NCBI GenBank assembly: GCA_951406725.2
Contig: OX597816.1
Coordinates: 177,940,001 to 178,004,000, forward strand
DNA: 64,000 bases
Direction of reading: 5' to 3'
Origin: Octopus vulgaris
Lineage: Eukaryota
Shown here piece by piece: positions 5,479 through 22,387 of this stretch. Under the pieces are notes generated by a model, which searched no databases, had not been told where the DNA came from, and was given only the letters and a program-made list of their open reading frames with translations. The position numbers and the translations under genes were made by a program. Position 1 is the first letter of the stretch. Each line of letters begins with the position of its first letter.

Positions 5479-8400
5479 ATGGCACCAAAGTGGGAAAAGA
5501 AAGAATTAAATCTTCTGCTGCGAGCATGGGTGATTGCTAGTGGCGATCCGCCAAACAACATCATCACTGCTGCACTAAAGAACAATGGCTTTCACAGAAC
5601 CATTGACCAGATAGAGCGGAAGAAGAGTGAATTATCCGGTCTTATATGCTTATAAGACCACACATTAACACCTTGGATAACATAATCGAAAACTATTGTG
5701 GCAAGGCTAATAAGGATGGAGAAGACGAAAAAGAAAAGGAAAAAACCCGGAAGTCTTTGTAATCCAGAGGTTCCTCAAGAGAATGGATCACCCGCCCCGG
5801 TGAACGACCAGGCAGAAAAGGATAGGGGAGTAAAGGAAGCAGTAACTGGAAGTCCGCCCTGTGCCAGTGGTCCTACAAAGGAACGGAGCCCTCACCCCAT
5901 TAAAAAAAAACAGAAGAAAAAGTTCCCATCACAAGAAAAGGAAGGACGGAAAACAAAAGTAAAGAAGGAAAGGAAGAAAATGGAAAATGCAAAACAACCA
6001 AAACCGAAATCCCAACCCACCAAACAACCAATAGAAATACCCGTGGAGGATTTAATGCCACCCAAAACCCTACAGGAAAGAAGAAATCTGGAAGGCGCCC
6101 AAGAACCTGCAAATTTTACCTGCAAGACAAATGGGGAGGACGGCAAAAACTGCCCGTTTGCTCACCCGACACCCCGCCAGAACTACAGGGGCCTTAAAGA
6201 GAAAACATTCACTGAGGAAAGACATATGTCTCCAAGAAAAACATTGAGAAAAGAAGTGTGCTCCTCAGATGTTCTGCGCAACGCAGCAGCTGAGAAAGAG
6301 TCTTTTTTATGTATAGCGCAAAGGATTGTACAACAGCTAACCTGGCTACACAAAGCACAAAGAAGGAACCTTGCCTACCACTATGCAAGACCACCACAGT
6401 CAACAGTCAACAGACACGAGATGGCCTCCCCTAACGCCTGCACAGTCGTCATCCCAATACTTTTACTAAATATTGGGGGCCTGTCACATCAAAATAAAAA
6501 CAAACTTTCTTTCCTGAGAGATTTTTACTGATTGCAATCAAGCCCTATGCATAGCACTTGTGGAAACTCACCTCAACCCTGAAACGATGCCATACTGCGA
6601 ACAGACAGAAGAGAAAGGAGCCATGGAGGAGTTGTTGTATACATCCGAGATGACCTCACACCCCAGGTCTCAATGACATACTCAAATTCGGTATGTGACA
6701 CTTTAATTGTATACATAAGACAACATAATATAGTCATATGCAATACATATTGCCCATCGGATGCTCCAAACCACATAGGCAAGTTTGAAGGTTACCTCAC
6801 AAGAATTAAAGAAATCCTCATAAATCTGGAACACCACGTGACCATATTTCTTATAGGTGATTTCAACTTCCCCAACGTCATTGCAAGCAAGCACAGGTGG
6901 AGTCCCTGCTCAACCTCACCAATGCCTTATTCATGGAGCAAGTTGTACTCAAATCAACTAGGGCGATTAACATTCTGGATCTCTGCTTCACGAACAATAT
7001 GGACATCATTCATGATGTGAAAGTGACACCGACATTAGTCTCGGATCACAACATAATAGAGCTGTCTATGTTTGGGCCGAAAGTAACCAGAGACATACAG
7101 CCTAAAGGAAGCACCCGAAATCTCTCCAATCTGAACTTCCACAAAGCAGATTGGAAATCAATCCAAAAAGAGATCCTCAGAGAGTACTGGCCGAAATGTC
7201 TCTCCACACCAGACATTGACATGAAACTAGTATGTTTCATGTCTTCTGTCCAAGCCATATGCCAGAAATATGTCCCAGAGCACAAGGCCAAAACAAACAG
7301 GAGCAAGATTCCAAGGGAGAGGAAGATCCTCATGAGACGACGGACGAAGGATGCAAATCGACTCAACCAACATCCCAAAAGTAGCGAAACGTCCCGCCTA
7401 AAAACAACACTGGTGGAGATCGAAAAAAGGCTGCAACAATCCTATGTGAGGGAGAAAGCAAACAAAGTAGCCTGGGTTATAAAAAACATTAAGTCAAACC
7501 CAAAGGCCTTCTTTCATTATGCGAAAGAAACAGCCTCAGTGCACTGCAAGATAGGACCCCTCCTCCAAAAGAATGGCTCCCTCACAGACAGTCCAACTAA
7601 GATCAGTGAGATACTGAAAGACCAGTTCAAAAGTGTCTTTACTACCCCGTTGGAACACAGACAAGTGAACGAACCAGTGGACTTCTTTGGCGCCTCACCT
7701 ATAACCAGTGAGGCAGCTACAATGGGATACATTGACATTAGCGAAGAAGATATCCTACTAGCCATAGATGAAGTGAACACAAACTCAACTGCTGGTCCTG
7801 ATGGTTTCCCAGCAATCCTCCTCAAATCGCGTAAGCATGCCCTGGTAAAACCCCTCCAGATTCTGTTCCAGAGCTTTCTTACAAATGGCAAACCGCCAAG
7901 CAAGCTGAAGGAGGGAATAATATGCCCAATACATAAAGGGGGAAGTAGAGCAGATGCCAAAAACTATAGGCCTATCTCTCTGACTTCACGCATCAGCAAA
8001 GTCATGGAACGGATAGTCAAAGGGAAACTTGAAGAAAATAACTTGCTGAGTGATACCCAGCATGGTTTTCGACCAGGTAAGGAGCTGCCTGACCCAGCTC
8101 TTACAACATTATGACTGGGTGTTGAGGCAGTTACTCAACAAATCAAATGTGGACGTAATATACCTTGATTTTGAAAAAGCTTTTGACAAGGTGGATCATG
8201 GTATAATATGCCACAAATTGCGTGACCTTCGCATAGCTGGAAAACTTGGAGAGTGGTTACATGACTTCCTGAAAGATAGGAGTCAGGCAGTAGTGGCTAA
8301 TGGAGCCACTTCTATGAACACACAAATAGTGAGGGGTGTTCCACAGGGCGCTGTCTTGAGACCACTTCTTTTTATAGTGGCCCTCTCAGATATGCCCTCA

Positions 8401-9402
8401 AATGCCCGGATAGCCACCCTTGCAAGCTATACAGATAATACTAAAGTCTCGCAGAAAATACAGAACCCCGGCGATGTTGCACACCTGCAGCAGGAGTTGG
8501 ACTCAATTTACAGATGGGCTGAGGATAAGAATATGTAGTTTAATGCTGAAAAATTCCAGGCCCTGCGCTACCAGCATCCAAAACTGAATATTAAACTTAC
8601 AGGATACACCGGTCCACAGGGAATTTCAATCCCAGAGCCTAAGACTGTGAGGGACCTGGGTATCGACATGAGTGATGATACCTCTTTCCAAGTGCACATT
8701 ACCAGGATGGCGACAAAGTGCAGACGACTGGCAGGATGGATCCTAAGAACATTCAGAACCAGAGATAAGGAAACCATGATGGTCCTCTGACGGACATTCG
8801 TCCTCAGCCGCTTGGATTACTGCTCACAGCTGTGGTCACCCACCAGTGTGAAATTAATAGCGGACCTTGAAGCAATGCAGAGAAGATTCACAAAGAAGAT
8901 CGTCTCTTTGCAACAGCTCAGCTACTGAGAAAGGTTGAAACAGCTAAGTCTCTACACCCTGGACAGAAGACGGGAGAGGTATGCAGTAATATATATCTGG
9001 AAGATCCTGGAAGGAATTGTGCCAAATGTTGGCATTGAAAGGTACACTAATGCCAGAAAGGGACGACACTGAAAAGTGCCATAGATCCCAGCAATGCCAT
9101 TGTGCTCCAGGACCAGTCTCTGCAACAGCCTGGGTTTCAAGGGCCCGCAGCTTTTTAATATTCTCCCAAAGAGTCTGAGGAACTTGCACAAAGTAGATGT
9201 AGGAGTTTTCAAATCAAAACTGGACCTCTTTTTGTTGAGAGTTCCAGATAAATCTACCTCACTGCAAGAGGTGCAAATGAGGGTAGCTATATCAAACTCC
9301 ATGATTCACCAAGTGCCACATATTAGAGGAGGCTATTAGTGCCACATATGTAGCAAAACGGCGGTGCATCAGCATGGCCACAGCTCTGAGCTGAAACTAG
9401 AG
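5479..9402 (+). mobile_element. CR1-group non-LTR retrotransposon (ORF1 plus APE-EN/RT ORF2), near full length but frameshifted
   Basis: EN motifs LLNIGGL, ETHL, GGVVVYI, IGDFNFP, LDLCF, SDH. RT motifs AGPDG, YRPISLTS, QHGFR, DFEKAFDKVDH, GVPQG, degenerate YxDD (YTDN). C-terminal LDYCSQLWSP. 3' end CAGCATGGCCACAGCTCTGAGCTGAAAC. Confidence 0.9.
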
Positions 9403-9426
9403 AATATACATACATATATATATATA

Positions 9427-9569
9427 TACGACGGGCTTCTTTCAGTTTCCGTTTGCCAAATCCACTCACAAGGCTTTGGTCGGCCCGAGGCTATAGTAGA
9501 AGGCACTTGCCTAAGGTGCCACGCAGTGGCAATGAACCCGGAACAATATGGTTGGTAAGCAAGCTACTT
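9427..9569 (-). mobile_element. SINE family A, body portion left of the Tx1 array
   Basis: Matches family A from CGACGGGCTTCTTTCAG to GGTAAGCAAGCTACTT, then stops abruptly. Confidence 0.9.
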
Positions 9570-12105
9570 TATTTCATAAATATTTGCCATGAAGGCATTA
9601 CAAAGAGGGGACAAACAAGAAGAGACAAACAAAAGCTGTAGCGATTAAATATTTACAATTTAAAAATACAATAATTTAATGAAAATGTTTATAATTTTTG
9701 ACTTAAGCGTTGCTCATTACAAATGAAATTTGTAATGGCTTCTCTGAAGGATAGGCATCCGACCACCAGGGTAGACCCCTTGCTTTTTCTTTCCTGTTTT
9801 TGGCTTCCACTTACCTGGTGCCAAACACTTCCAGCTTCCTCGCCACAGGCTTCCATCTTCGCATGAATCTGTCTCTTGACAGGTACCTTTTCTACAGTTA
9901 ACCAACCCCTGGCCGGATACAAAGGTACCCGACACTATGCCTCTCACACGCGTCTTCCATACTGTTTCTTTCAGTATGGCTACTACGCAGAAAAGCAAGC
10001 CTTCGGACTTAACCTCCACTAACCGGCTATAGAAATCTGCGGTGGAACTCCTATTGCCGGCATTACCCGCCCGAGAGAGTAGCTGAAGTGCCTGGCAGCA
10101 CTCCAATTGCCAGTCCCCAAGCCTAGGTCTCTGCTTGATCCAATTACAAATGTCCGTTAAGGACGTGCGGCGACCACACCTGCTCTCCATCCAGGTAAAG
10201 CCAAGGGTGCCTCAACCTTAACGCGAATTTTTGCATCCTCAACCAAGACATCCCTAGCCCACCCTTTAGCGGTTTCTGGCAACAGACAGAGCGCTTTCCA
10301 ACAGGCTTTCCTCCTTTCCACAAAAAGCGGAAAAGGATTCTCTCCAACTTGTTCAGTCACAAATCGGGGCAAGGCACCACGGTCAGATGGTAGGTGATAA
10401 CCGATGCTATAAACATCTGCACCACCTCCGCCTTTCCTAGCAAAGATAACGCCCACCCGGACCAGGTCTGGGTTAGAGCAGTCACCCTGCCGGCCACCTC
10501 ACTCCAATTTTTCTCTATCTAGAAGTCCGGTCCTAGCCACACTCCGAGCAGCTTAACAGGAGCTTCCGTTCAACGCCCCACAGCGTTATTGTACGGCATT
10601 GGCTTGCCCCTCCAGGTGCCGAGCTGCAAACCAATTGACTTGTCCTTGTTAACCTTTGCTCCTGCCACCGCCTCGTAACTTTTGATAGCCTCTTCCACCA
10701 CTGGAAGCGGTCCTCATCCGCCACAATGATGGAGATGTCAACGCATACGCTGTAGCTCCTCTTCCATCCATAGATCATGCGGTGCGCCCCCTAGTGCCTC
10801 CAACTTCTGCAATAATGGCTCAACAGCCAGTACATACAAAACCGGGGACAGGGGACACCCGTGACGCACTGAGCGCTCGATCCTGAATGGCTTCGAAAGG
10901 AAACCATTCACTTTTACGACGGACTCGATGTCTCTATACAACGCAGCAATCCAACCGCGGAAGGTCGGGCCCAAGCCAGCCTTCTCGAGGACCGCCGCCA
11001 AGTACCGATGGTCGACCCTATCAAATGCCTTTGACTGGTCTAAATGTACCAGTACCCGCCATGTGCCAGAAAGCGTTCCCACCCTCTCTAAGGAGTAGCG
11101 TACAAGGTGGAGATTGTCGTGGATCGTCCTGCCCGGGATAGCGCACGTTTGCATTCCCCGACAAGTTTGTCCACGACCCGCGCCAACCTTTTCGCTAACA
11201 CCTTGGCCAAAATCTTTAACTCTGTGTTCAGCAGAGTTATGGGCCTGAAGTTACATATCTCGCCCACCTTGCTTGGGTCCTTCTTGATCAACGTCACCAC
11301 TTCCCGGCTCGCAGACTTAGGAATTCTCACATTCTGCTACCAATTGGCGTAGACGCTGGCCAGCAGGTGCCCGAACAAGTCTGGCATACTTTTGTAAAAT
11401 TCGTAAGGCAGACCATCGAGACCCAGTGACATCTCCCCGGGACATTCGCCCAGTACTTCGATCATCTCCTCGGCCGTGATTGACCCTTCGCAGCACTCAG
11501 CCTCTCATGCCGAGAGACGCGGGCCACCAGACAGGAAGTCCCTCAGGACCTCGCCATGATCCAGCGCCCCGCCACTCCCAAACAACTCCTGGTCGGATAC
11601 AAAGGTACCCGACACTATGCCTCTACTAAGTGCTTGTGAATCGTCTCACACATCTCGTCCCGTCCATCGACCCATTGTCATCCACGAGAGACCTAATTGT
11701 GGTATCATTGCCACGCTGGGTTTCTATCGTAAGGGCCCATCTGGCCCAATGCGCGCACTTTAGCCCAAACTCTGCACCCTCATGTTTGGCTTTGAGGTAA
11801 CGGTCCAAGGCCGTTTTCGCTGCCAAAATGTGAGATGCAGAGCCCAACATCAACGCCTCCTCTAGGTCCTTAACTAGTTGCTCTTCTGTTCTGGCCTTAT
11901 CTAGTCTTAGCTGACGGCTAAACCTAATAGACTCAAAACGAATGGCTCCCTTGAGGGCGAATCACTATCGGTTATTAATCACCGCACCGGTTAACGCCCT
12001 CTGTACTAATTCCTCAATCCGGCTACAGTATGCCTCGCAAGTCAAAATAGACTTATTCAGCTTCCAGTAGCCGGATCCTCTCTTAACTGTACTATCTATG
12101 TCCAG

Positions 12106-12783
12106 TCAACACTTAACCATTCTATGGTCAGTGTAAGCTACTTGGACATGCTGTGGACAGCTAAAACTAGACTTATCTCCAGTTCTTATCACTATCCTAT
12201 CTAAATAGGACTTGAACCTTCCGTCGCCACTCATCCAGGTCCACTCTGGGACGTTCGGATGGTCAAGTCTGTAACGATCAGCCAGCTGAAAACGCTTGAG
12301 CAGATTTATGAGACGTGAGTTTACTTTCCTATAGATCGAGCCAACGCTATCGATGCACGCATCAACAATAGCATTATAGTCTCCTAACACCACTAATGTC
12401 TTTGACGTCCCGAGAAAGTTCTCTAGGCGCCGATAAAAATCAGTTTGAAATCCTCTAGCACAAGGTGCGTAGATCCCGATCAACCTGAAGGCCTTACTGC
12501 TGTATGTCACATCAAGGACAACCAGCCCACCTTCTGGGTCTACATAGACTGTATTTGTCTGCAGAGCCAAGCCTTTTCGAACCAGTACTACTACACCCCC
12601 TAGCCCTCCAGTCGAGCTAGGCGACATGATTTCCTCATAGTCATTCAGGAGGGGCGAGAGGGCTTGTAGACTGTCCAGCTTGGTCTCTGTAGCAACCATC
12701 ACATGCATATCGTGAAAACAAGCTTGCTTCCACTTCAAGCTCAGACCACGCACATTCAAACACCCAAGGTTAAGTGCAGTCAT
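12106..12783 (-). pseudogene. APE-type endonuclease domain of Tx1 unit A ORF2
   Basis: 225-aa open frame with the APE motifs listed above. Its ATG lies 26 nt after the ORF1 stop at 12809. Confidence 0.88.
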
Positions 12784-13878
12784 TTAAAACAAAAGCAAAG
12801 CAAGGGTTCTACTTACTCTTTGACTTTTCTTTAATTGGTGATGCTGGGGCTGACCTCACCACACGTGAGGCAGTCCTTTCCTCCTGCTCCTTCAAATACC
12901 GTGGAAGGTCCGGGATGTTCGTGATGGCTCTCGGATGCCTACCCTTCATTTCATTATACAGTTTTTCTGGTATCCAGGCACATCTCTCTTCCGTGCCTTC
13001 AGACTGCTGCAACAGCTCCACGGTGTGATGTTTCTTTAATGTGTCCATGATTTATTTATCCCTGGTATCAAATTTTACCAGGGTTTTCCGTCTTTGTTCT
13101 GTTTTATTTTCTCTTCTGAGACAGTGGAGCGGGATCTTTTTTTTTTTCTGTGGTGTGCTGTTTTTCTTCTTTTTTCTTTGTGGGGGATATGATTAGGGAA
13201 GGTGCACGTGTTCTCTTTTTCTGGGTGTCTTGAACTCCCCTTCGGTCACCTCCATGGTGTCTTCCAGAGGAGTTGTTACTTCAGAGGGGGTGGGTGCATT
13301 TGTTTCGGTCGGCACCAGTGTGTGCATGGCCTGGGATTTTTGGGTGTTTTATTTGGGAGTGGGTGCCACAGATGGTGGGGTGGGAGTATTTGTTTCTGTA
13401 GGGGTTAATTTGTGTGCGGGTTTGGGGTCTTTTTCTGTAGTTGGAGGGCCTGATGTCTGCGCACTTATTATTTTTTTCCATATTTCACAGTCTACGCAAA
13501 TGTTGCCTTTTTGCCACATTCGAAACACGTGGGTTTTTTGCCCTCTACTCGAACCTTGAGGGCAATATCTTCCCCCAAGAGCATTCTTTCTGGCAGCATT
13601 TCGATGTCTTCTTGTGTTCCCCGAATAATCGCAGTGATGCTCTGCCCTTGCCAATTTTGTGGGGCAGTGCATGTGATTTGGAGGAAGGTGATTTTGTCCG
13701 TTCTGTTATACAACAGGGCGGCTATCACCTCCCTTGCCTCAATTTCTGGTGGTACTTCATTTATTCTGACGCGTGCTGTTTTCCTTCCCGTGTATGCTGG
13801 GAGCAGCATCATCTCCTTCGTTTTCAGAGGACTCACTGAGTGCTCTTGGGCTTTTTCAGTCATCTCAAATCTGGCCTC

Positions 13879-14318
13879 GGATCTTTTCGGTTTGAACGGC
13901 AGTTTTTAACACAATTTCTCGGTAACTAAAAAATTTTAAACTTCGTATACTGGTAGAATGTGTTTATAAAACATCTTTTTCTCTTGGCTTTATTGAGAAA
14001 ATTTTATAGTTTATAAGCTATTTGCTGTTTTTTTTCTTCAATTTCTGAAATTTCAACCAATCGATGACGTTAAAAAACATTCTGTGCCGTATGAATATGT
14101 CCCTCATTTAAGAAACAGATTAGGTTTATTTACATTTGTGAAGAAAAAAAGATACCCTTCCCCCCACCCCTAACCCTAACCCTAGCCCTAACTAACCCTA
14201 ACTAACCCTAAGCCTAAAACAGATTGAAATGCAATAGATCGATACTAGGGTCATAATTATGGGTGACAATTTCATATGACACCGCTAGAAAAAACTGCCG
14301 TTCAAACCGAAAAGATCC
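13879..14318. mobile_element. Non-autonomous DNA transposon (MITE) inserted in unit A ORF1
   Basis: ~29-bp TIRs GGATCTTTTCGGTTTGAACGGCAGTTTTT. 8-bp TSD CTGGCCTC (13871-13878) and CTGGCTTC (14319-14326). Internal (CCCTAA)n-like tract at ~14168-14215. Confidence 0.88.
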
Positions 14319-15317
14319 CTGGCTTCTATTGTTCCGTATGCTCGGCCCCTCGCTATGTATTTTATATATTTCTATATGGGGGCCAGGCATTTTTCTGTTT
14401 CGCACTTTTCGAAGTGCTTGAATTTTTTCGATGAAAGACAGTACATTAAGTAAACGAATGTCCTTTTCTTCATATTTTCAATACTAAGGGAGGGTGAGAT
14501 CTTTATATTCCACCCTCCTCTTTCATTCTCTCAAAAAGCTCGGAGAGCTTCTCCGTTTCTATTACAACATTTTTACACTAAACAGCGGCTACTGCCGCGA
14601 ACATTTTTGCTGGCTCATGCAGCTGGTTTGTTTCTTGAATTATTTCGACCGACATATATCGTTCGAAATAAATTATACACAATTTAATCCCATAAAATGG
14701 GAAACCTGTAATTTTTTACTTTTATCTTCTCTCAACGAGGACAACAGTTCCAATCCCACCCCTGTTGGGGGGACGAGACGTAGCAACAAAGCCTACAACG
14801 TTCGAATTTTTTTTCACACAATAATAAAAATACAGAATCAAAAAAAAAACGGGAAACCTATAATATTTTTTCCCCCTCACATCGAGGACAACAGTTCAAA
14901 TCTCGCCCACGCTAGGGGTGGATGCCACAATAGAGCCTACAACGGCTGAAATTTAATTTTTCACGCAATAATAAATTGCTTATCCCAAAAAACGGAAAAC
15001 CTATAATATGTTTTCCTCTTAATGAGGATAACAGTTCAAATCCCACCCCCGATGGGGGGGGGGGGGGCAATAAAGCCTACAACAGCTTTAATAAGTTCAA
15101 TATTAATAATATTAATAATTTCAATATTTGAACAATTACTTTCTCCCGTCACCGGGGAAAAGCACAAATATTTTCAAAGTTCAACAATGTTCAACAGTTC
15201 AAAAATATTCAACAATAAACAACAATTCCAATAGAAAAATTATTCAACGCTCAACAAAACGTTTGACTCACCGCCAAAAAACACGTCTATCCACGACAGA
15301 GGTAAGCGAGCTACTTT

Positions 15318-18300
15318 ACAAACATATAGGTGAAGCAGCTTAAAACGTTTTAAAAATTAATATGATGGGTACAAATTTCAATGAAAGTTTACAAATTTAA
15401 TGTTACATAGTAGGGCAAGGAACTCATCCATCTGGGTAGAACCTTTACTTCTTGATCTGGCCACGCATACTTGGTGCCAAACATACCCAGCTTACAAGTT
15501 ACAGGCTTCCATCTTTTCACAAACATATCTTGTGACAGACACCTCTTCTCCAGCCTGATCTTACTACCGAGATGGTAACTAAAAAAGTTAACCAACCCCT
15601 GGCCGGATATAAAGGTACCTGTCACTATACCTTTCGGACGCATCTTCCATACTGTTTCTTTCAGTATGGCAACTACGCAGGAAAATCAAGCCTTTCTTTC
15701 CCCGCTGAGGAAAGCAGGTGGCATAATCTCGACGATAGACTCTGCTAATAGCTGTACTCTTCCACTCACTGACAACAGTTGTTCGGCAAAAGCAATCAGT
15801 CCCGATAACTCCGGGCACTCCACGAATGCGTGCAAGACGATTTCCCTATACCGCACACATCGCGGACATGTCGGCGAGACGGCACTTCCGTGCCTTGACA
15901 GCTTGTCGCGAACAGGTAACGCCGCACGGAAACACTGCCAGGCCAGGGATTTCTGGTAATTAACGTTCTCGGAACAGGTTGACCAACCGATTTTCATCGT
16001 AGCCCAGGGTCTCCCCCAAGACGTCTTCTGATATAAATTTCACTAACCGGCTATAGAAATCCGCGGTAGAACTCCTGTTTAGGTCTCCGCTTGATCCATG
16101 CACCGGTGTCCGTGAAGGATGTTAACTGGGGAAGGTAGAACCGAACGTGCGGTGACCACACCTGCTCTCCATCCAGGTAAAACTAGAGGTGCCTCAACCT
16201 TAATGCGAGTTTTCGCATCTTCAGCCAAGGCATCCCTAGCCCACCCTTTAGCGGTTTCTGGCAACTGACAGAGCGCTTTCCAACTGGCTTTCCTCCTTTC
16301 CACAAAAAGCGGAAAAGGATTCTCTCCAATTTGTTCAGCTACAAATCGGCGCAAGGCACCACAGTCAGACGGTAGGTGATTACTGATGCTATGAACATCT
16401 GCACCACCTCCATCTTCCCTAGCAGGGATAACGTCCGTCCAGCCCAGGTCTGGGTTAGAGCAGTCACCCTGCCGGCCACCTCATTCCAATGTTTCTCTAT
16501 CTGGAGGTCTGGACCAATCCAGACTCCGAGCAGCTTAACAGGACCTTATGTCCAACGCGACGTTATTGGACGGCATCGGCTTGCCCCTCCAGGTGCCGGG
16601 TTGCAAACCGACCGACTTGTCCTTGTGAGCCTTTGCTCCTGCCACCGCCTCGTAACTCTTGATGGCCTCTTCCACCACTGAAAGCTGGCCTTCATCTGCC
16701 ACGATGATGGAGATGTCAACGCGTACGCCGTAGCTCCTCTTACATACAGAAGCGGGGACAGGGGACACCCCTGGCGAACTGAACGCTCGATCCTGAACGG
16801 CTTCGAAAAGAGCCCGTTCACGTTGACAACAGACTCGATCCAACCGCGTAAGGTCGGGCCCAGACCATCCTCCCCGAGGACCGCCGCCAAGTACCGATGG
16901 TCGACCCTACCAAATGCTTTAGACTGGTCTAAATGCACCAGTGCACAATTTTGCGCCTCCCCGACAAGTTTGTCTATGACCCGCGCCAACCTTTTTGCCA
17001 ACACCTTGGCCAAAATCTTTAACTCTGTGTTTAACAGAGTTATGGGCCTAAAGTTACCTATCCCGTCCCCCTTGCGCGTTAATTCTTTATGTTGAATATA
17101 AAGTTTTGTCATCTGACGTGTCACAATAGCTTCGTTGGTGTATCGTTCCGTAGTGTCGTCTTCGACAAGCTTTTCCTCTTTTTCTTCCGGGGCCGTTGGG
17201 CGGGATTTATTTTTTATTGTTTTTTGTGTATTGTTTTGGTTTTTACTCTCTCGGGCGGTGATGTGGATGGGGAAGGTTTTCGTTTTCGAGGTGTTGCAAA
17301 TCCACCCTCTGATACCTCCATGGTATCGTCTGAGAGGTCAACGTCTGTGGGGGCAACACTTTTTGGAGCAGTCGGTGCCACAGCTTACAAGGGGATGGGT
17401 GTTTTTATATTTGTAGGGGCTTGTGCGTGCAGGGGCTGGGTCTTTTTTGTCGTTTGTTTCGGGGCTAGCACCACAACAGGGGGACTGGGAATTTTTTGTC
17501 TGTGGGGATTGGTGTGTTTGCGGGGGTGGTTTTGTTTTGTTATTTGAGTGGCCTGGTGTTTGCGACAACTTTTTTTTTGTTCACAGTCCGCTCGATTGTG
17601 GCCCTTTTTTCCGCATTGGTAACAGGTGGGTTTACGGCCTTCCACCTGTACCCTAAGGGACACATTTTCCCCAAAAGGCACTCTCTCTGGTAGGACCTGA
17701 AGGTCCTCCTGTGTCCCCTGAATCAGGACCGTAATGCTTCGCCCGAGTCAATTCTGGGGGTTGGAGCATGTTATTTGTAAGATTTTTATTTGGTCCGCCA
17801 TATCAAACAACAGGGAGGCCAGCATTTCTCTTGGGCCTATTCAAGCGGTACTTCATTTATTCTTACACTAGATGTTCTTTTCCCCATATACATGAGTAGA
17901 ATTACCACCTCATTTGACTTTAGGGAACACGCGGCGTGCCCACGGGCCACCTCTTCGTCTGCGAAGCGAACCTCGACTGAGCCATATATCCTTCCCATTG
18001 TAATGTACATTATGTCCCTCCGTGTCGGGGACAGGCATTTCTCTATTTTCACTTCTTCGAAGTGTTTAAACCTTCTGTCTTTTGGGCTGAAGGTTTTGAA
18101 CACTACGGTCCGCTTTTCAGTTTCCACCACAGTTGAAGAAGGTGATATTATCACATCACCTCCTTCTTTTTTCATACGTTTAAAATATCCCTGTAGCATA
18201 CCTACAGGCATATCAATGTTTTCGGTTGCCACTGCGGCAACCTCCGAAAACTTTTTTCCATTGTTGACATGACTGCCGACATCATCATTGCTCTTTATAA

Positions 18301-18750
18301 GAGCACACATTTCGTGTATAATTTCAACTGACATGGTTGAAATTAATAACACAAGTAATTAAATTGGTTTCCCACAAACTGGGAAACCTATAAAAATTTT
18401 TTCCTATCAAAGAGGATAGTAATTTTTTTTAATTATGTAATACAGTTCAAATCCCACCCCCATTAGGGGGAGGGCACAGAAAGTCTAAAAGACTGTTACA
18501 ATTCAAAAATGTTATTCACACACGAAGAAAAAAAGCCACAATTGCCAGAGTTCAGAATTTTTGAGAAAGTGTTGAATTATTAAATTATTCCCCGGAAAGA
18601 CCAGGGAATAAAACAGTCCAAAATCGTTCAAATGTAATTCCTTGTTTCAAAGGTAACAAATCCAAAAAGTAATTACAACAAAACAGCAACAATGAAACAA
18701 TAACAACAGCAAAAACTCTTACCACGAGGAAAGACATGTTAACTCTTGTA
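15318..18750 (-). mobile_element. Tx1/L1-clade unit B (ORF1 joined to a partial RT; EN region deleted)
   Basis: ORF1 pieces at 17385-18352 with CYQCGKKGHNRADC. RT pieces FRPITLLN, LDQSKAF, QGCPLSP. C-terminal CPRC..H..C finger (15686-15997). No EN motifs between ~17070 and 17130. Confidence 0.87.
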
Positions 18751-18767
18751 AGGTAAGCGAGCTACTT

Positions 18768-19676
18768 TATTTTATTAAAATTGCCACAAGGGCTGGACAC
18801 AGACAGTAATGGGATGAATGATAATGATACAAGGATGATAAGGGTGGGAGAAGAGAAAAGCGCCCGCCGACTTTCACTTCTCTGAAACATTTTTCCTTTT
18901 TCTTTTTAAATCACATAATGAGGCTATAAACCTCTTACACAGTTCAGTAAATCGACACACACGAGGCAATAATCCCCTTACTTTTTATATAAAAAAACAA
19001 AGTTTTTTTGAGGTAATACACCTCTTACAAAAATGTCCATCAATTCAACTCTTCTGTCCGACCAGGCTACTCGCTTCATTGAAGCACCTGGTCCGTTTCA
19101 AACTTGAACATTTCATCATATATCTGAAGGAGTCCGCCGGGAAGGAGTTCATTATCCTGCACAGATCGGTCTCCCACATGACCTCCGCAGCCACCTGCGA
19201 AGGCCACTCAGGGTCCTCCGTGCAGGACAGAAGCCCCTCCCATCGGCCCTTCCTTTCAATTTTGCCAATTACACTCTGCAATGTCCCTCCCTTTGTGAAA
19301 GAGGACCACAAATTCTTCCTCCAGCGGCACACCTGCCGAAGGAACATGGGGACACGCCGGCAGCGTGTCACAAACCGCCGGCAATGTCCTGTTTTTCTTT
19401 TTTCTTTTACCCTTGGACCGCGGGTAAAAGACAAGAGCGCCCGCCGACCCTCGCTTCTCTAAGACATTGTTCCTTTTTTTTTCAAAATTTCACAAAAATT
19501 TCAAATTTTCTTTTTCAATACAATATAATGTTCAATAAGTCTATGTTACCCGGCCGACCAGCGCTCTTGCCTCAACGAGGCAATCATCGCTGGTCAGGTC
19601 GTGGTCTAGAGGTATAATTTGAAATGGGTCCATCGGGAAGGAATGCTGCCAAAAAACACGTCCGAACACGTCAGAG
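18768..19676 (-). mobile_element. Short non-autonomous Tx1-related unit C
   Basis: Shares the 3' end (TTGCCACA-GGG.., GCGCCCGCCGAC) and the 19120-19250 segment with unit D. Bounded by the junction motif on both sides. Internally duplicated. Confidence 0.75.
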
Positions 19677-19690
19677 GTTAGCGAGCTACT

Positions 19691-21727
19691 TTATTTAATT
19701 TAATTTGCCACAGGGGCAGTACACAGATAGTAGCTACGGTCTGGACATAGACATTAATGAATGATGGTAATGGAATGAAGATGGTGATGGGAGAAGACGA
19801 AAGCGCCCGCCGACTTCCGCTTCTCTAAGACATTGTTCTTTTTTCAATAATTTCACAAAATTTCCAAAATTTCACAAAAATTCCAAATTTTACAAATTAC
19901 AAATTACAAATTCAAAAATTTTTCCAGAGGCAATAAACCTCTATCTCAATATAATACAAAAACAGGTTCACGTTACCCGGCTGATGAACGTTCTTGCTTT
20001 ATTGACGCAATCGTTCTTCGTCAGGCCCCCGCATACAGGTATCAATTGAAAGAGGTCCTCCGGGAAAGAATTCTCGATCCTGCACAGATCTTTATCCAAT
20101 AGGACCTCCGCAGCCAACTGCGAAGGCCACTCGGGATCCTCCATGCAGGACCGAAGACCCTCCCATTAGTTTCTCTTCCTCATTTTACCTATTTCATTTT
20201 CTAATATTCCTCCTTTGTAGAAGAGGATTACATAATATTTCTCCGGCCCCTCAACCGCCGAAGGAGACATGGGAGACGCCGTCTGCGTGTTACAATCCGC
20301 TGGCGGCGTTCCGTTTCTCTTCTTTCTTTTTTTCTTTTTACCGTGGGCCACGGGAGGTTGAGGTTCCGGTGTTGCACACGCCGGGTCCACTCTTTCTCCC
20401 GTAGCTTCCGGGTCTTTTAGTGGGTCACAATTGTTCCCCACTTTTCGTTTTCTCGTTGAGGAAGTCACCGCTTCCTCGTTCTGTTTCTCTCCCTCCATTT
20501 GGGGGGCAGGGAGAGGTTCCGATATCAACTTCTCCAGGATCCTACTTTGGTTCCTGGGGCAGTTCTTCTTAATGTGGCCGGTCTCCAGACACAGGTGACA
20601 CTTGGGGGGGGGGCGTCCCTCAAGCATCACCGGATACCTGGACCCGGCCATCCTCAAAAAGTCCGGAAAAACCAGACTTTTGGCTGACTGGGTCCATAGG
20701 GTCAAAACAGCTGTTGACCCCTCCCAATCAGCCGCAGGCTGTACTTTTACGTTCAGTAGCTTGGAACTGCTACCATCCAAGCCCCGGCGGATAGAGTCCT
20801 CTATCCACTCGGGCTCAACGCCTGGTGGTAAGCCGCAGATCCAAGCTCTCAAAAATTTTGTCCCTTGTAATTAGGGAGGAACAATATGTGTTTGCCCTCA
20901 ATGGGCTGGCTTGCAAATTCGCAAGCTGCTTTAGGGGAGTCAAATAGCAACCAAACCGTTGCGTATCTAACTCCCCGTGCGATATATTTAACGGCTGGCA
21001 TGTAGTCTGCCAGCTCGTTAACAATAGTAGCCTTTGGAAAGACTGCTATGGTGTCGAGCGACTTCGAGTATGTCCTCAGCACCACGGTCTTTTCCTCGAG
21101 CTCATTGAAATATTTTTTGGGAGGTGTCAATTCCCACACAGTGAATTTCTTTGCCATAACGTAAGGTTCAAAAACAGTTCAAAATGTGATAAAATAAGAC
21201 ACAGAAAGGAGAATGAAAAATACAACAGAGGGGAAGAAATGAAATTAGAAATAGCAGTTCAAAAACAGTTCTTTTTTTAAAAAAATAAATGATAGACGGA
21301 GAAAGAGAGTTCAAATCCAGGCAAAGGAATTAATTTTTTCTTTTTTTTTTTTTCACTTTTTTCGGCCAAAACATTGTATTCTAGGCCAAATGTACAACTG
21401 GTAAAACTTCTTGATAAAATAATCCTTGGCACTCCCTGGTAATTCCCGTGGATAACACAAAGACAATTTCAAAAACAATTTTTGCAGAGGAACTACGCCT
21501 CTTCAAAAACACAATTCTCACTGCAAAGTGAGTCTTTACACTCGACAACAGGCAGGAAAAAATGTCTGGAGCAAAGTGTAATCTATTACTTGCTAAAAAT
21601 TATTAAATGCAAAGCAATAAACTTCACTAGGCCCCTAAATAAAATTCAACAAATGCCTACCTGTAGTCGAGTCTCAAAAATTCAACATTTCACGTCGAAG
21701 CACGTGACAACCGGCAGCTGCCAAAAA
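19691..21727 (-). mobile_element. ORF1-only Tx1-related unit D (HAL1-like)
   Basis: ORF1 in two frames (20849-21157 and 20166-20852) with CHLCLETGHIKKNC. Its N-terminus resembles unit A/B ORF1 (EKTVVLRTYS; LFLPNYKG). No EN or RT before the 3' end. Confidence 0.8.
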
Positions 21728-21750
21728 ACCACACAGCCACTCCTGTACCT
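21728..21750 (-). mobile_element. SINE family A 5' head, continuation of the copy broken at 9569
   Basis: ACCACACAGCCACTCCTGTACCT is the sequence that follows GCTACTT in intact copies (compare 31852-31881). Confidence 0.85.
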
Positions 21751-21779
21751 GACTAGGCGGATGAATTCTGAGAACCTTC

Positions 21780-22368
21780 CAAACAATGGACCAGGATACT
21801 ATCTATGCTGGTTCTATGGAGCACATTTATACTGAACTCTCTGGACCACTCTGAATTATGGTCACCCTACAGTGTCAAATTAATCGCAAAACTTGAGGCA
21901 GTTCAGCTGCGTTACACCAGGAAGCTTATGTTAATAGCACAGCTGAGTTACTGTGAGAGAAGAAAGAGTGGTATAAGCATGGAATATCCTTGACGGGCTG
22001 GCTGACACCTCGGTTTGGAATCGAGAGCTACACCAGTCCCTGAACTGGACTTTCTGCCCGATTCCAACGGTCCCATTTGTCCCGTCTAATGTGAGGACCA
22101 TGAACTGTAAGAGCCAACAACTCTGTACTCCCTTGCCAATACATCTGAGTGATCTTCATGGAGTAGCAGTAGATGTTTTCAAGAAACAACTTAACCTCCT
22201 GCTACACAAGATCGGAGATATATCAAGATCTAAGCAGGAGACTCAAAAGAGGGCAGCAGTGTCGAACTCCCTCCTTCACCAAAAGCCAATTACATAAATC
22301 GGCCAAAGGGTGATTGCATTGGTGTTGCACCAGTATGGCCATGCCTTGGGCTGAAACATGTAACAGAA
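21780..22368 (+). mobile_element. Diverged CR1-group 3' fragment
   Basis: LDHSELWSP..KLEAVQLRYTRK and VDVFKKQLNLLL are homologous to 8800-9300. Ends in CAGTATGGCCATGCCTTGGGCTGAAAC. Confidence 0.8.
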
Positions 22369-22387
22369 TACACACACACATACACAT

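What the first reader, a model, noticed from the sequence alone, without database searches (positions are those of the whole stretch)
9427..21750. SINE-targeted retrotransposon array: at least four Tx1-like elements stacked at one site in a tRNA-derived SINE head
Seen: a family A SINE is split exactly between GGTAAGCAAGCTACTT (ends 9569) and ACCACACAGCCACTCCTG (starts 21728). The 12.2 kb between are four same-orientation Tx1-related units. Every internal junction repeats the target: GGTAAGCGAGCTACTT at 15301 and 18752, GGTTAGCGAGCTACTT at 19676. Established: Tx1-clade APE endonucleases are often sequence-specific for multicopy targets such as snRNA, tRNA and 5S genes. Inference: these clearly diverged elements share an endonuclease specificity for a ~16-nt site between the A and B boxes of a very abundant SINE. 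They would use another transposon as a renewable safe-harbour target and pile up in tandem. I do not know of a described family with this target.
Basis: partly seen in the sequence, partly recalled or inferred. Interest (0 to 1): 0.9.

Follow-up and report, generated by a model that had tools for sequence, protein, structure and literature searches.

The report
SINE-targeting LINEs that rebuild their target
In this large animal genome (likely an octopus), over a thousand copies of a jumping gene and its shortened dependants sit at one exact spot inside another, far more common jumping gene, often stacked in chains; most full-length copies leave a fresh copy of that spot in front of them, and their tails carry a complement of it that likely helps their RNA lock onto the target.

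Summary
Confirmed and extended. Four L1/Tx1-like units lie head-to-tail in a split SINE, with the SINE's 16-bp site at each internal junction. Targeting holds genome-wide: 702 of 803 element 3' ends found without regard to the target run into it. So do 30 of 30 5' ends and 17 of 17 young 5.45-kb autonomous copies.

Corrections: units C and D are ORF1-only (HAL1-like) and encode no endonuclease; B has lost it. The junction 16-mer is not a plain target-site duplication. Its distal half travels with the element: in 12 units whose recipient SINE has T13, the 5' copy never does.

New: the 3' UTR holds the reverse complement of the target, and it switches with the SINE subfamily (AGCTAC with AAGTAGC 522:47; AGCTTC with AAGAAGC 122:14). 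Lineage-independent tests of this were underpowered.

Tx1 elements that target other transposons are known. I found no SINE-targeting family in 10 literature searches. Clade placement rests on weak references, and there is no biochemistry or RNA-end data.

The parts
9404..9553 (-). 3' part (B-box-like motif and body) of the split ~415-bp SINE
   Evidence: 88-92% identical to intact copies at 2246, 31693 and 42165; head 23-mer occurs 77,379 times exactly
9554..9569 (-). 16-bp target, recipient-SINE copy (AAGTAGCTTGCTTACC)
9570..15300 (-). Unit A: near full-length autonomous-type LINE (ORF1 + EN-RT-zf ORF2), frameshifted
   Evidence: Pfam Exo_endo_phos 12109-12783 and RVT_1; 70-85% aa identity to intact ORF2 of L187
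9585..9597 (-). 3'-terminal TGCC-N5-GGCA hairpin of unit A, shared by autonomous and ORF1-only tails
   Evidence: 93 of 125 scored tails TGCC/GGCA, compensatory TGTC/GACA 7 and CGCC/GGCG 4
9638..9642 (-). Eroded 5-nt remnant (GCTAC) of the anti-target motif in unit A
   Evidence: read from sequence; intact relatives carry AAGCTACTT
13874..14323 (.). 450-bp element with 34-bp terminal inverted repeats and telomere-like CCCTAA repeats, inserted in ORF1 of unit A
   Evidence: ORF1 alignment breaks at 14318/13878
15301..15316 (-). Target copy at the B/A junction (C9, T13 variant)
15317..18751 (-). Unit B: autonomous-type LINE with internal deletions (EN and first half of ORF2 absent) and a shortened 3' end
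15333..15341 (-). Anti-target motif of unit B (AAGCTGCTT; complement of target 1-9 with one G-U pair)
   Evidence: read from sequence
18752..18767 (-). Target copy at the C/B junction (C9, T13 variant)
18768..19675 (-). Unit C: internally deleted ORF1-only element with an intact 5' end
   Evidence: 95% to a unit in L160; matches only the ORF1-only protein
19676..19691 (-). Target copy at the D/C junction (C9, A13 variant)
19692..21727 (-). Unit D: ~2-kb ORF1-only (HAL1-like) element, first ~20 nt missing; ORF1 at 21157-19971 with zinc knuckle
   Evidence: 88% over full length to L152, which has an intact 395-aa ORF
19729..19735 (-). Anti-target motif of unit D (AGCTACT)
   Evidence: read from sequence
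21728..21749 (-). 5' head (A-box-like motif) of the split SINE

Best explanation
A young two-ORF LINE of the L1/Tx1 kind and many ORF1-only dependants sit at one fixed 16-bp site in the head of a very abundant SINE, likely inserted by target-primed reverse transcription with the LINE's endonuclease acting in trans for the dependants, and chains likely grow because each full-length insertion leaves a usable copy of the site.

Shown: precise 3' junctions without a poly(A) tail; target copies on both sides; a shared 3' hairpin; the distal half of the 5' target copy following the element lineage; a 3' UTR complement of the target that tracks the SINE subfamily.

Inferred steps. (1) ORF2p nicks the bottom strand at GGT^AAG[T/A]AGC. 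(2) The RNA reads through into the target, whose first two As complete the AATAAA signal, and this read-through anneals to the nicked strand. (3) The 3' UTR complement most likely folds against that read-through and encloses the hairpin. (4) A top-strand cut up to ~16 nt away is trimmed variably. (5) The RNA 5' end carries at least target positions 9-16, so joining rebuilds the 16-mer.
For: Target-blind 3' ends: 702 of 803 followed by AAGWA; 10 of 10 among 30 inspected hits of a looser pattern. Target-blind 5' ends: 30 of 30 inspected, of 40 found. Protein-picked young autonomous copies: 17 of 17 at the 3' end and 16 of 17 at the 5' end, with a 467-aa CCHC ORF1 and a 1133-aa EN-RT-zf ORF2 and 0.2-1.2% divergence among 13 copies. 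Mixed-family arrays of 2-10 units at many loci.

The 3' copy follows the recipient SINE subfamily (A13 with body T 29:6, T13 with body C 23:3). The 5' copy does not: of 43 units, 12 have T13 at the 3' copy and their 5' copy has A in 11 and C in 1. Positions 8-10 are non-canonical in 24 of 46 5' copies against 5 of 48 3' copies (p 1.4e-5). The C9 variant is 0.5% of SINEs (366 against 77,379) but clusters on the element tree (3 changes for 9 rows, 0 of 500 shuffles as low).

Truncated copies keep 0-17 nt of target, 8 of 15 at 7-11 nt. UTR/target table 522, 47, 14, 122. Predicted UTR-to-target pairing 0.65 against 0.24 for shuffled targets.
Against: No nicking assay and no RNA ends: only contigs of guessed type were served. 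Some 5' copies are true duplications beyond position 9 (L132 shares a private G11 in all three copies; L131 shares a private left-half change), so the hybrid boundary varies. The +T junction variant does not cluster on the tree. About 30 of the 47 discordant cases are one subfamily with AGCTAC that sits in AAGAAGC SINEs, so a perfect match is not required. Lineage-independent tests gave only 3-4 supported pairs and were not significant. Some families lack the UTR motif (35 of 193 junctions). The direction of array growth is unresolved (3 against 8).
Confidence: 0.78

Rival explanations
1. The element RNA reads the target DNA directly: after the nick, the 3' UTR complement pairs with the freed top strand while the read-through pairs with the bottom strand, so RNA co-selects the SINE subfamily.
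For: UTR base and target base covary (522/47/14/122). By tail cluster the counts are 23 T-T, 10 A-A, 3 T-A and 0 A-T. It is seen in autonomous tails (motif ~70 nt upstream) and ORF1-only tails (30-40 nt upstream).
Against: Folding inside the read-through RNA explains the same covariation. One subfamily of ~30 copies mismatches its target. Independent pairs were not significant.
Confidence: 0.2
2. Position is set by tethering to the Pol III machinery (TFIIIC on the B box) and not by reading the 16-mer, as recalled for Dictyostelium TRE elements and yeast Ty3.
For: The site lies between A-box-like and B-box-like motifs. In several young arrays the 3'-most unit, next to the B box, is closest to its relatives.
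Against: Junctions are single-nucleotide exact. Families discriminate SINE subfamilies by target sequence. In the window and in C19 divergence is highest in the 3'-most unit, and in C7 it tends to rise towards the 3' end, which points to insertion away from the B box. No junction with a true tRNA gene was seen among those read.
Confidence: 0.07
3. The arrays are local tandem duplications or unequal crossovers, not repeated insertions.
For: Homogeneous runs exist: seven 3' ends at ~2.0-kb spacing at G000:C1:223.69-223.71 Mb, three like units at C1:29.27 Mb.
Against: The window's four units belong to four different families and two structural classes. Arrays elsewhere mix families in varying orders.
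Confidence: 0.04
4. SINE head, LINE and SINE body are one composite element that moves as a unit, so there is no targeting.
For: The 5' target copy is partly element-borne, and two sister copies also share an A at position 0.
Against: One family sits in different SINE subfamilies, and the 3' copy follows the body. 5'-truncated copies are also joined to a SINE head, with 0-17 nt of target. A composite unit does not explain arrays.
Confidence: 0.02

Closest known systems
Tx1L of Xenopus laevis (inserts into the DNA transposon Tx1D)
   Same: APE-type two-ORF LINE that inserts into another transposon (PMC4494074 and PMC1919474, passages)
   Different: Target here is a SINE head. Tx1L EN is reported to read ~10 bp at the bottom-strand cut. 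The primary paper PMC85248 was not held.
Tx1-Mar, Tx1-9_AMi and SINEU-3 of crocodilians
   Same: Tx1 families that prefer Mariner-N4, LTR or Harbinger elements; a non-autonomous passenger shares the target (SINEU-3 90% flanked) and forms tandem insertions around a TSD (PMC4494074, passages and section 15)
   Different: The passages seen list transposon, microsatellite, satellite, U2, U5 and 5S targets and name no SINE (figure and supplements not seen). Passengers here are ORF1-coding. No element-borne 5' target or 3' UTR complement is described in what I read.
HAL1 (half-L1)
   Same: Non-autonomous L1 derivative encoding only ORF1p (PMC5753468, passages)
   Different: Here many ORF1-only families exist, their ORF1 is only 27% identical to the partner's over 195 aa, and they are site-specific.
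R2Bm, R1Bm and SART1Bm
   Same: R2 RNA is believed to carry upstream target sequence that lets the cDNA pair with the top strand (PMC6895275, passages). R1Bm needs downstream target sequence for accurate priming, and SART1 3' UTR sequence may anneal to the bottom strand (PMC7265360, passages).
   Different: Different clades and targets. The motifs described there are target-sense; the motif here is antisense to the target top strand and covaries with it.

Membership tests
L1-group APE non-LTR retrotransposon | Two ORFs; ORF2 with APE endonuclease, RT and C-terminal zinc motif | tested here: met
   Pfam Exo_endo_phos, RVT_1 and zf-RVT on the 1133-aa ORF2; best PDB hit human L1 ORF2p, E 8e-67, against R2 at 6e-20
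Tx1 clade | RT phylogeny groups with curated Tx1 references (Tx1L, Keno, Kibi, Dewa) | tested here: inconclusive
   No curated references available. The tree of 44 rows has no L1 outgroup and puts the protein among fish, amphibian, turtle and coral proteins, only one of them auto-named 'Transposon TX1 149 kDa protein' (36% identity), on weak deep branches
Tx1 clade | ORF1 with a gag-like CCHC zinc knuckle (recalled as typical of Tx1) | tested here: met
   zf-CCHC at residues 228-243, 20.7 bits against a cut-off of 20.8
Target-specific non-LTR element (Kojima criterion) | More than 20% of flanks are one repeat type | tested here: met
   Criterion from PMC4494074; here 87% (702 of 803) and 17 of 17
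Target-specific non-LTR element | Endonuclease nicks the target sequence-specifically in vitro | not testable with these tools
   Needs biochemistry
Target-specific non-LTR element | Fixed-length target-site duplication | tested here: not met
   Only 18 of 43 pairs are identical and the differences are directional; truncated copies keep 0-17 nt
HAL1-like ORF1-only element (units C, D) | Encodes ORF1 only, with intact ends and no ORF2 sequence | tested here: met
   ~2.0-2.5-kb units, several with a single ~400-aa ORF; no ORF2 match in C or D
HAL1-like ORF1-only element (units C, D) | Mobilised in trans by the autonomous partner | not testable with these tools
   Inferred from the shared 3' hairpin and shared target
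tRNA-derived SINE (the target) | Short, high-copy, tRNA-related head with Pol III boxes | tested here: inconclusive
   ~415 bp, at least 86,000 exact head copies, box-like motifs read by eye; no tRNA hit by ARAGORN or Rfam; octopus tRNA-SINE identity recalled

The most novel reading that the evidence does not exclude
An APE-type LINE whose RNA helps choose its DNA target by base pairing. It carries the target in sense at both ends and in antisense in the 3' UTR, could exchange strands with both target strands after the nick, and co-evolves base for base with its host SINE's subfamilies. Changing a few RNA bases would retarget insertion.
Probability: 0.2. Interest if true: 0.93.

Novelty: new variant of a known kind. 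Interest (0 to 1): 0.78.

Why it matters
It adds a SINE to the targets of site-specific LINEs and shows a whole set of elements, one young autonomous family and many ORF1-only dependants, living on that target. Hundreds of dated natural insertions record which junction bases come from RNA and which from DNA, which makes the open question of 5'-end joining in APE LINEs directly testable. The covarying 3' UTR complement is a candidate RNA contribution to target choice. If it pairs with DNA, it would matter for retrotransposon-based gene insertion. Intact, nearly identical ORF2 copies exist for biochemistry.

Tried and rejected
- RNA evidence: no RNA holder on record. Only contigs were laid, and they cannot show starts or ends, so there is no inference on expression.
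- A first loose 3'-end pattern gave 3,349 hits, but 16 of 30 inspected were a different SINE-like repeat and 2 were unrelated. It was replaced by a tighter pattern.
- Idea that the AAGAAGC SINE subfamily escapes insertion: rejected, 254 junctions against 8,641 heads.
- Idea that the window's array is duplicated at C3:176.9 Mb: rejected, it is a separate ~90%-identical element.
- Idea that the +T junction variant is inherited: not supported.
- Direction of array growth by nearest-relative distance: 3 against 8, sampling-dependent, unresolved.
- Independent-pairs tests of UTR/target covariation: underpowered. One search used a sample that I had enriched for discordant cases; one search gave 3 supported pairs, 2.8 concordant, 0 opposite, p 0.25.
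- L089 as evidence of read-through RNA: dropped, it is a palindromic locus.
- Curated Tx1 references could not be obtained.
- ARAGORN and Rfam did not detect the tRNA origin.
- Earlier scan notes: three look-ups returned nothing.
- PMC85248 was not held. Supplements of PMC4494074 were unreadable; they list Tx1 targets and could bear on novelty. Repbase and Dfam could not be searched.
Full report
Setting. The window is G000:C3:177,940,001-178,004,000 in a 2.8-Gb genome of 227 contigs. The SINE resembles an octopus tRNA-derived SINE; that label is recalled and comes from no call.

Observation. The junction motif occurs exactly at 9554, 15301, 18752 and 19676; 6 hits with up to 2 mismatches against 0.26 by chance. 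The two extra hits are intact SINEs. On the minus strand the order is SINE head, D, target, C, target, B, target, A, target, SINE body. A is a frameshifted ORF1+ORF2 element with a 450-bp TIR insert. B has lost ORF2 residues 1-508. C and D match only an ORF1-only protein. The four units are different families, so local duplication cannot explain this array.

Targeting is genome-wide. The internal motif has 32 exact hits; 25 of 30 inspected follow an element 3' end, 4 a SINE head and 1 another flank. A 3'-end pattern that ignores the target gives 803 hits, and 702 of them continue into AAGWA within 6-16 nt. A 5'-end pattern gives 40 hits; all 30 inspected follow the target, 22 after a SINE head and 8 after another unit. 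From 151 endonuclease matches I fetched 17 with long open frames and 3 distant ones. All 17 end in the target and 16 begin with it. Two distant relatives (63-64% identity) end in non-SINE flanks, and the third is truncated. Exact 3' junctions number 836 for the AAGTAGC SINE form (77,379 heads) and 254 for the AAGAAGC form (8,641 heads). Arrays of 2-10 mixed units recur. A contig from a run with another species label bridges the same head-to-element 5' junction by 36 letters (record 16).

The elements. The autonomous family is 5.45 kb with a 467-aa CCHC ORF1 and a 1133-aa EN-RT-zf ORF2. Thirteen copies differ by 0.2-1.2% from their nearest relative. Most units are 2.0-2.5 kb with one ~400-aa ORF1, 27% identical to the autonomous ORF1 over 195 aa. 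Both classes share a terminal hairpin with compensatory changes (93 TGCC/GGCA, 7 TGTC/GACA and 4 CGCC/GGCG of 125 scored among 148). The junctions read show no poly(A) tail; the AATAAA signal is completed by the first bases of the target. Mobilisation in trans and read-through transcription are inferred from this.

The junction is a hybrid. The 3' copy follows the subfamily of the SINE body behind it. The 5' copy does not. In 43 units with a SINE body at the 3' side, only 18 pairs are identical; where the 3' copy has T13 (12 cases) the 5' copy has A in 11 and C in 1. Positions 8-10 are non-canonical in 24 of 46 5' copies, 5 of 48 3' copies and 6 of 47 intact SINEs. The C9 variant is 0.5% of SINE heads, yet 8 of its 9 carriers fall in one supported branch of 12 rows of the element tree, 0 of 500 shuffles as low. 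Against a strict rule: L132 and L131 share private target changes on both sides, and the +T variant does not cluster. For truncated copies, one search printed 31 rows. I dropped 5 false head matches, 9 with intact 5' ends, 1 palindrome and 1 duplicate. The 15 left keep 0-17 nt of target, 8 of them 7-11 nt, several with short microhomology. The best reading is a top-strand cut up to ~16 nt away, variable trimming, and an RNA leader that supplies at least positions 9-16. This resembles what is proposed for R2 (PMC6895275, passages).

An antisense copy of the target in the 3' UTR. Most tails carry AGCTAC 30-70 nt before the end, the reverse complement of target positions 3-8, often extending to 7-10 bp (117 of 199 junction rows reach 7 or more, against about 2.5% for shuffled targets; the rows include some false junctions). 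Elements in AAGAAGC SINEs carry AGCTTC instead. Genome-wide, AGCTAC goes with AAGTAGC 522 times and with AAGAAGC 47; AGCTTC goes with AAGAAGC 122 times and with AAGTAGC 14. Non-element look-alikes were 10 of 100 listed, 1 of 14 and 4 of 47. About 30 of the 47 are one mismatched subfamily. In sets picked by target only, 87 tails give 53 T-T, 12 A-A, 3 T-A, 1 A-T and 18 uncalled; 50 tail clusters give 23, 10, 3, 0 and 14 uncalled. Kin are not independent, and supported independent pairs were too few (3 pairs, p 0.25; 4 pairs, p 1, on a sample enriched for discordant cases). The switch appears in both autonomous and ORF1-only tails, whose motifs lie at different distances. Folding predicts UTR-to-read-through pairing of 0.65, against 0.46 with position 4 swapped and 0.24 shuffled. 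I favour folding within the read-through RNA; direct pairing with target DNA is the bolder reading.

Array growth. Nearest-relative distances favour the 5' unit in 3 pairs and the 3' unit in 8; in the window and C19 the 3'-most unit is the most diverged. This is unresolved, and both directions may occur.

Comparison with what is known. ORF2 is L1-group. Tx1 placement is likely but untested against curated references. Tx1L into Tx1D, Tx1-Mar into Mariner-N4 and tandem SINEU-3 copies are described (PMC4494074, passages and section 15). PMC4640811 (passages) lists transposons among targets in general. HAL1 is the precedent for ORF1-only elements (PMC5753468, passages). An octopus repeat annotation lists 421 recent L1-Tx1 insertions covering 2,288,644 bp, a mean of 5.4 kb by my division, and its main text has no occurrence of 'target' or 'nested' (PMC13282606, passages); whether these are the same families was not tested. 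PMC3706591, PMC8869645, PMC8967140 and PMC4758252 (passages) name no SINE-targeting LINE in what I saw. Ten searches listed none. Subscription papers, Repbase entries and the supplements of PMC4494074 were not seen.

Verdict. It is a new variant of target-specific Tx1-like LINEs, with three unusual traits: a SINE target, ORF1-only dependants, and target sequence carried in the element at both ends. Interest 0.78.

Noticed in passing
L031-L057 (16 of 30 loci), e.g. G000:C1:325532: A second abundant SINE-like repeat ends in the same TGCC-N5-GGCA hairpin followed by (ATT)n and is not inserted in the SINE target; it may be mobilised by a related Tx1-like family.
   Followed up: no
L052, L056: Related LINE tails followed by (ATC)n or (ATA)n microsatellites, possibly microsatellite-targeting sister families.
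   Followed up: no
L198, L199: Relatives with 63-64% endonuclease identity end in non-SINE flanks; useful outgroups for the origin of SINE specificity.
   Followed up: partly
window 13874-14323: 450-bp element with 34-bp terminal inverted repeats and internal CCCTAA telomere-like repeats, inserted in unit A.
   Followed up: partly
window ~6583-9400 (+) and ~21750-22370 (+): Fragments of another LINE type (RT and EN Pfam hits on the left; CR1-like by recall) flank the SINE; the left piece is 91% identical to a stretch of L137.
   Followed up: partly
G000:C1:223694785-223715224: Seven like ORF1-only 3' ends at ~2.0-kb spacing upstream of a young autonomous copy, plus one on the opposite strand; may include local amplification.
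   Followed up: no
L089 (G000:C1:111116883): Palindromic locus: SINE head and element tail mirrored around the target; fold-back product or assembly artefact.
   Followed up: partly
window 18768-19675, L073, L079, L133: Many copies keep both ends but have large internal deletions, unusual for LINEs that are normally 5'-truncated.
   Followed up: no
window 11580-11624: 45-bp piece duplicated from 9900-9944 inside ORF2 of unit A.
   Followed up: no
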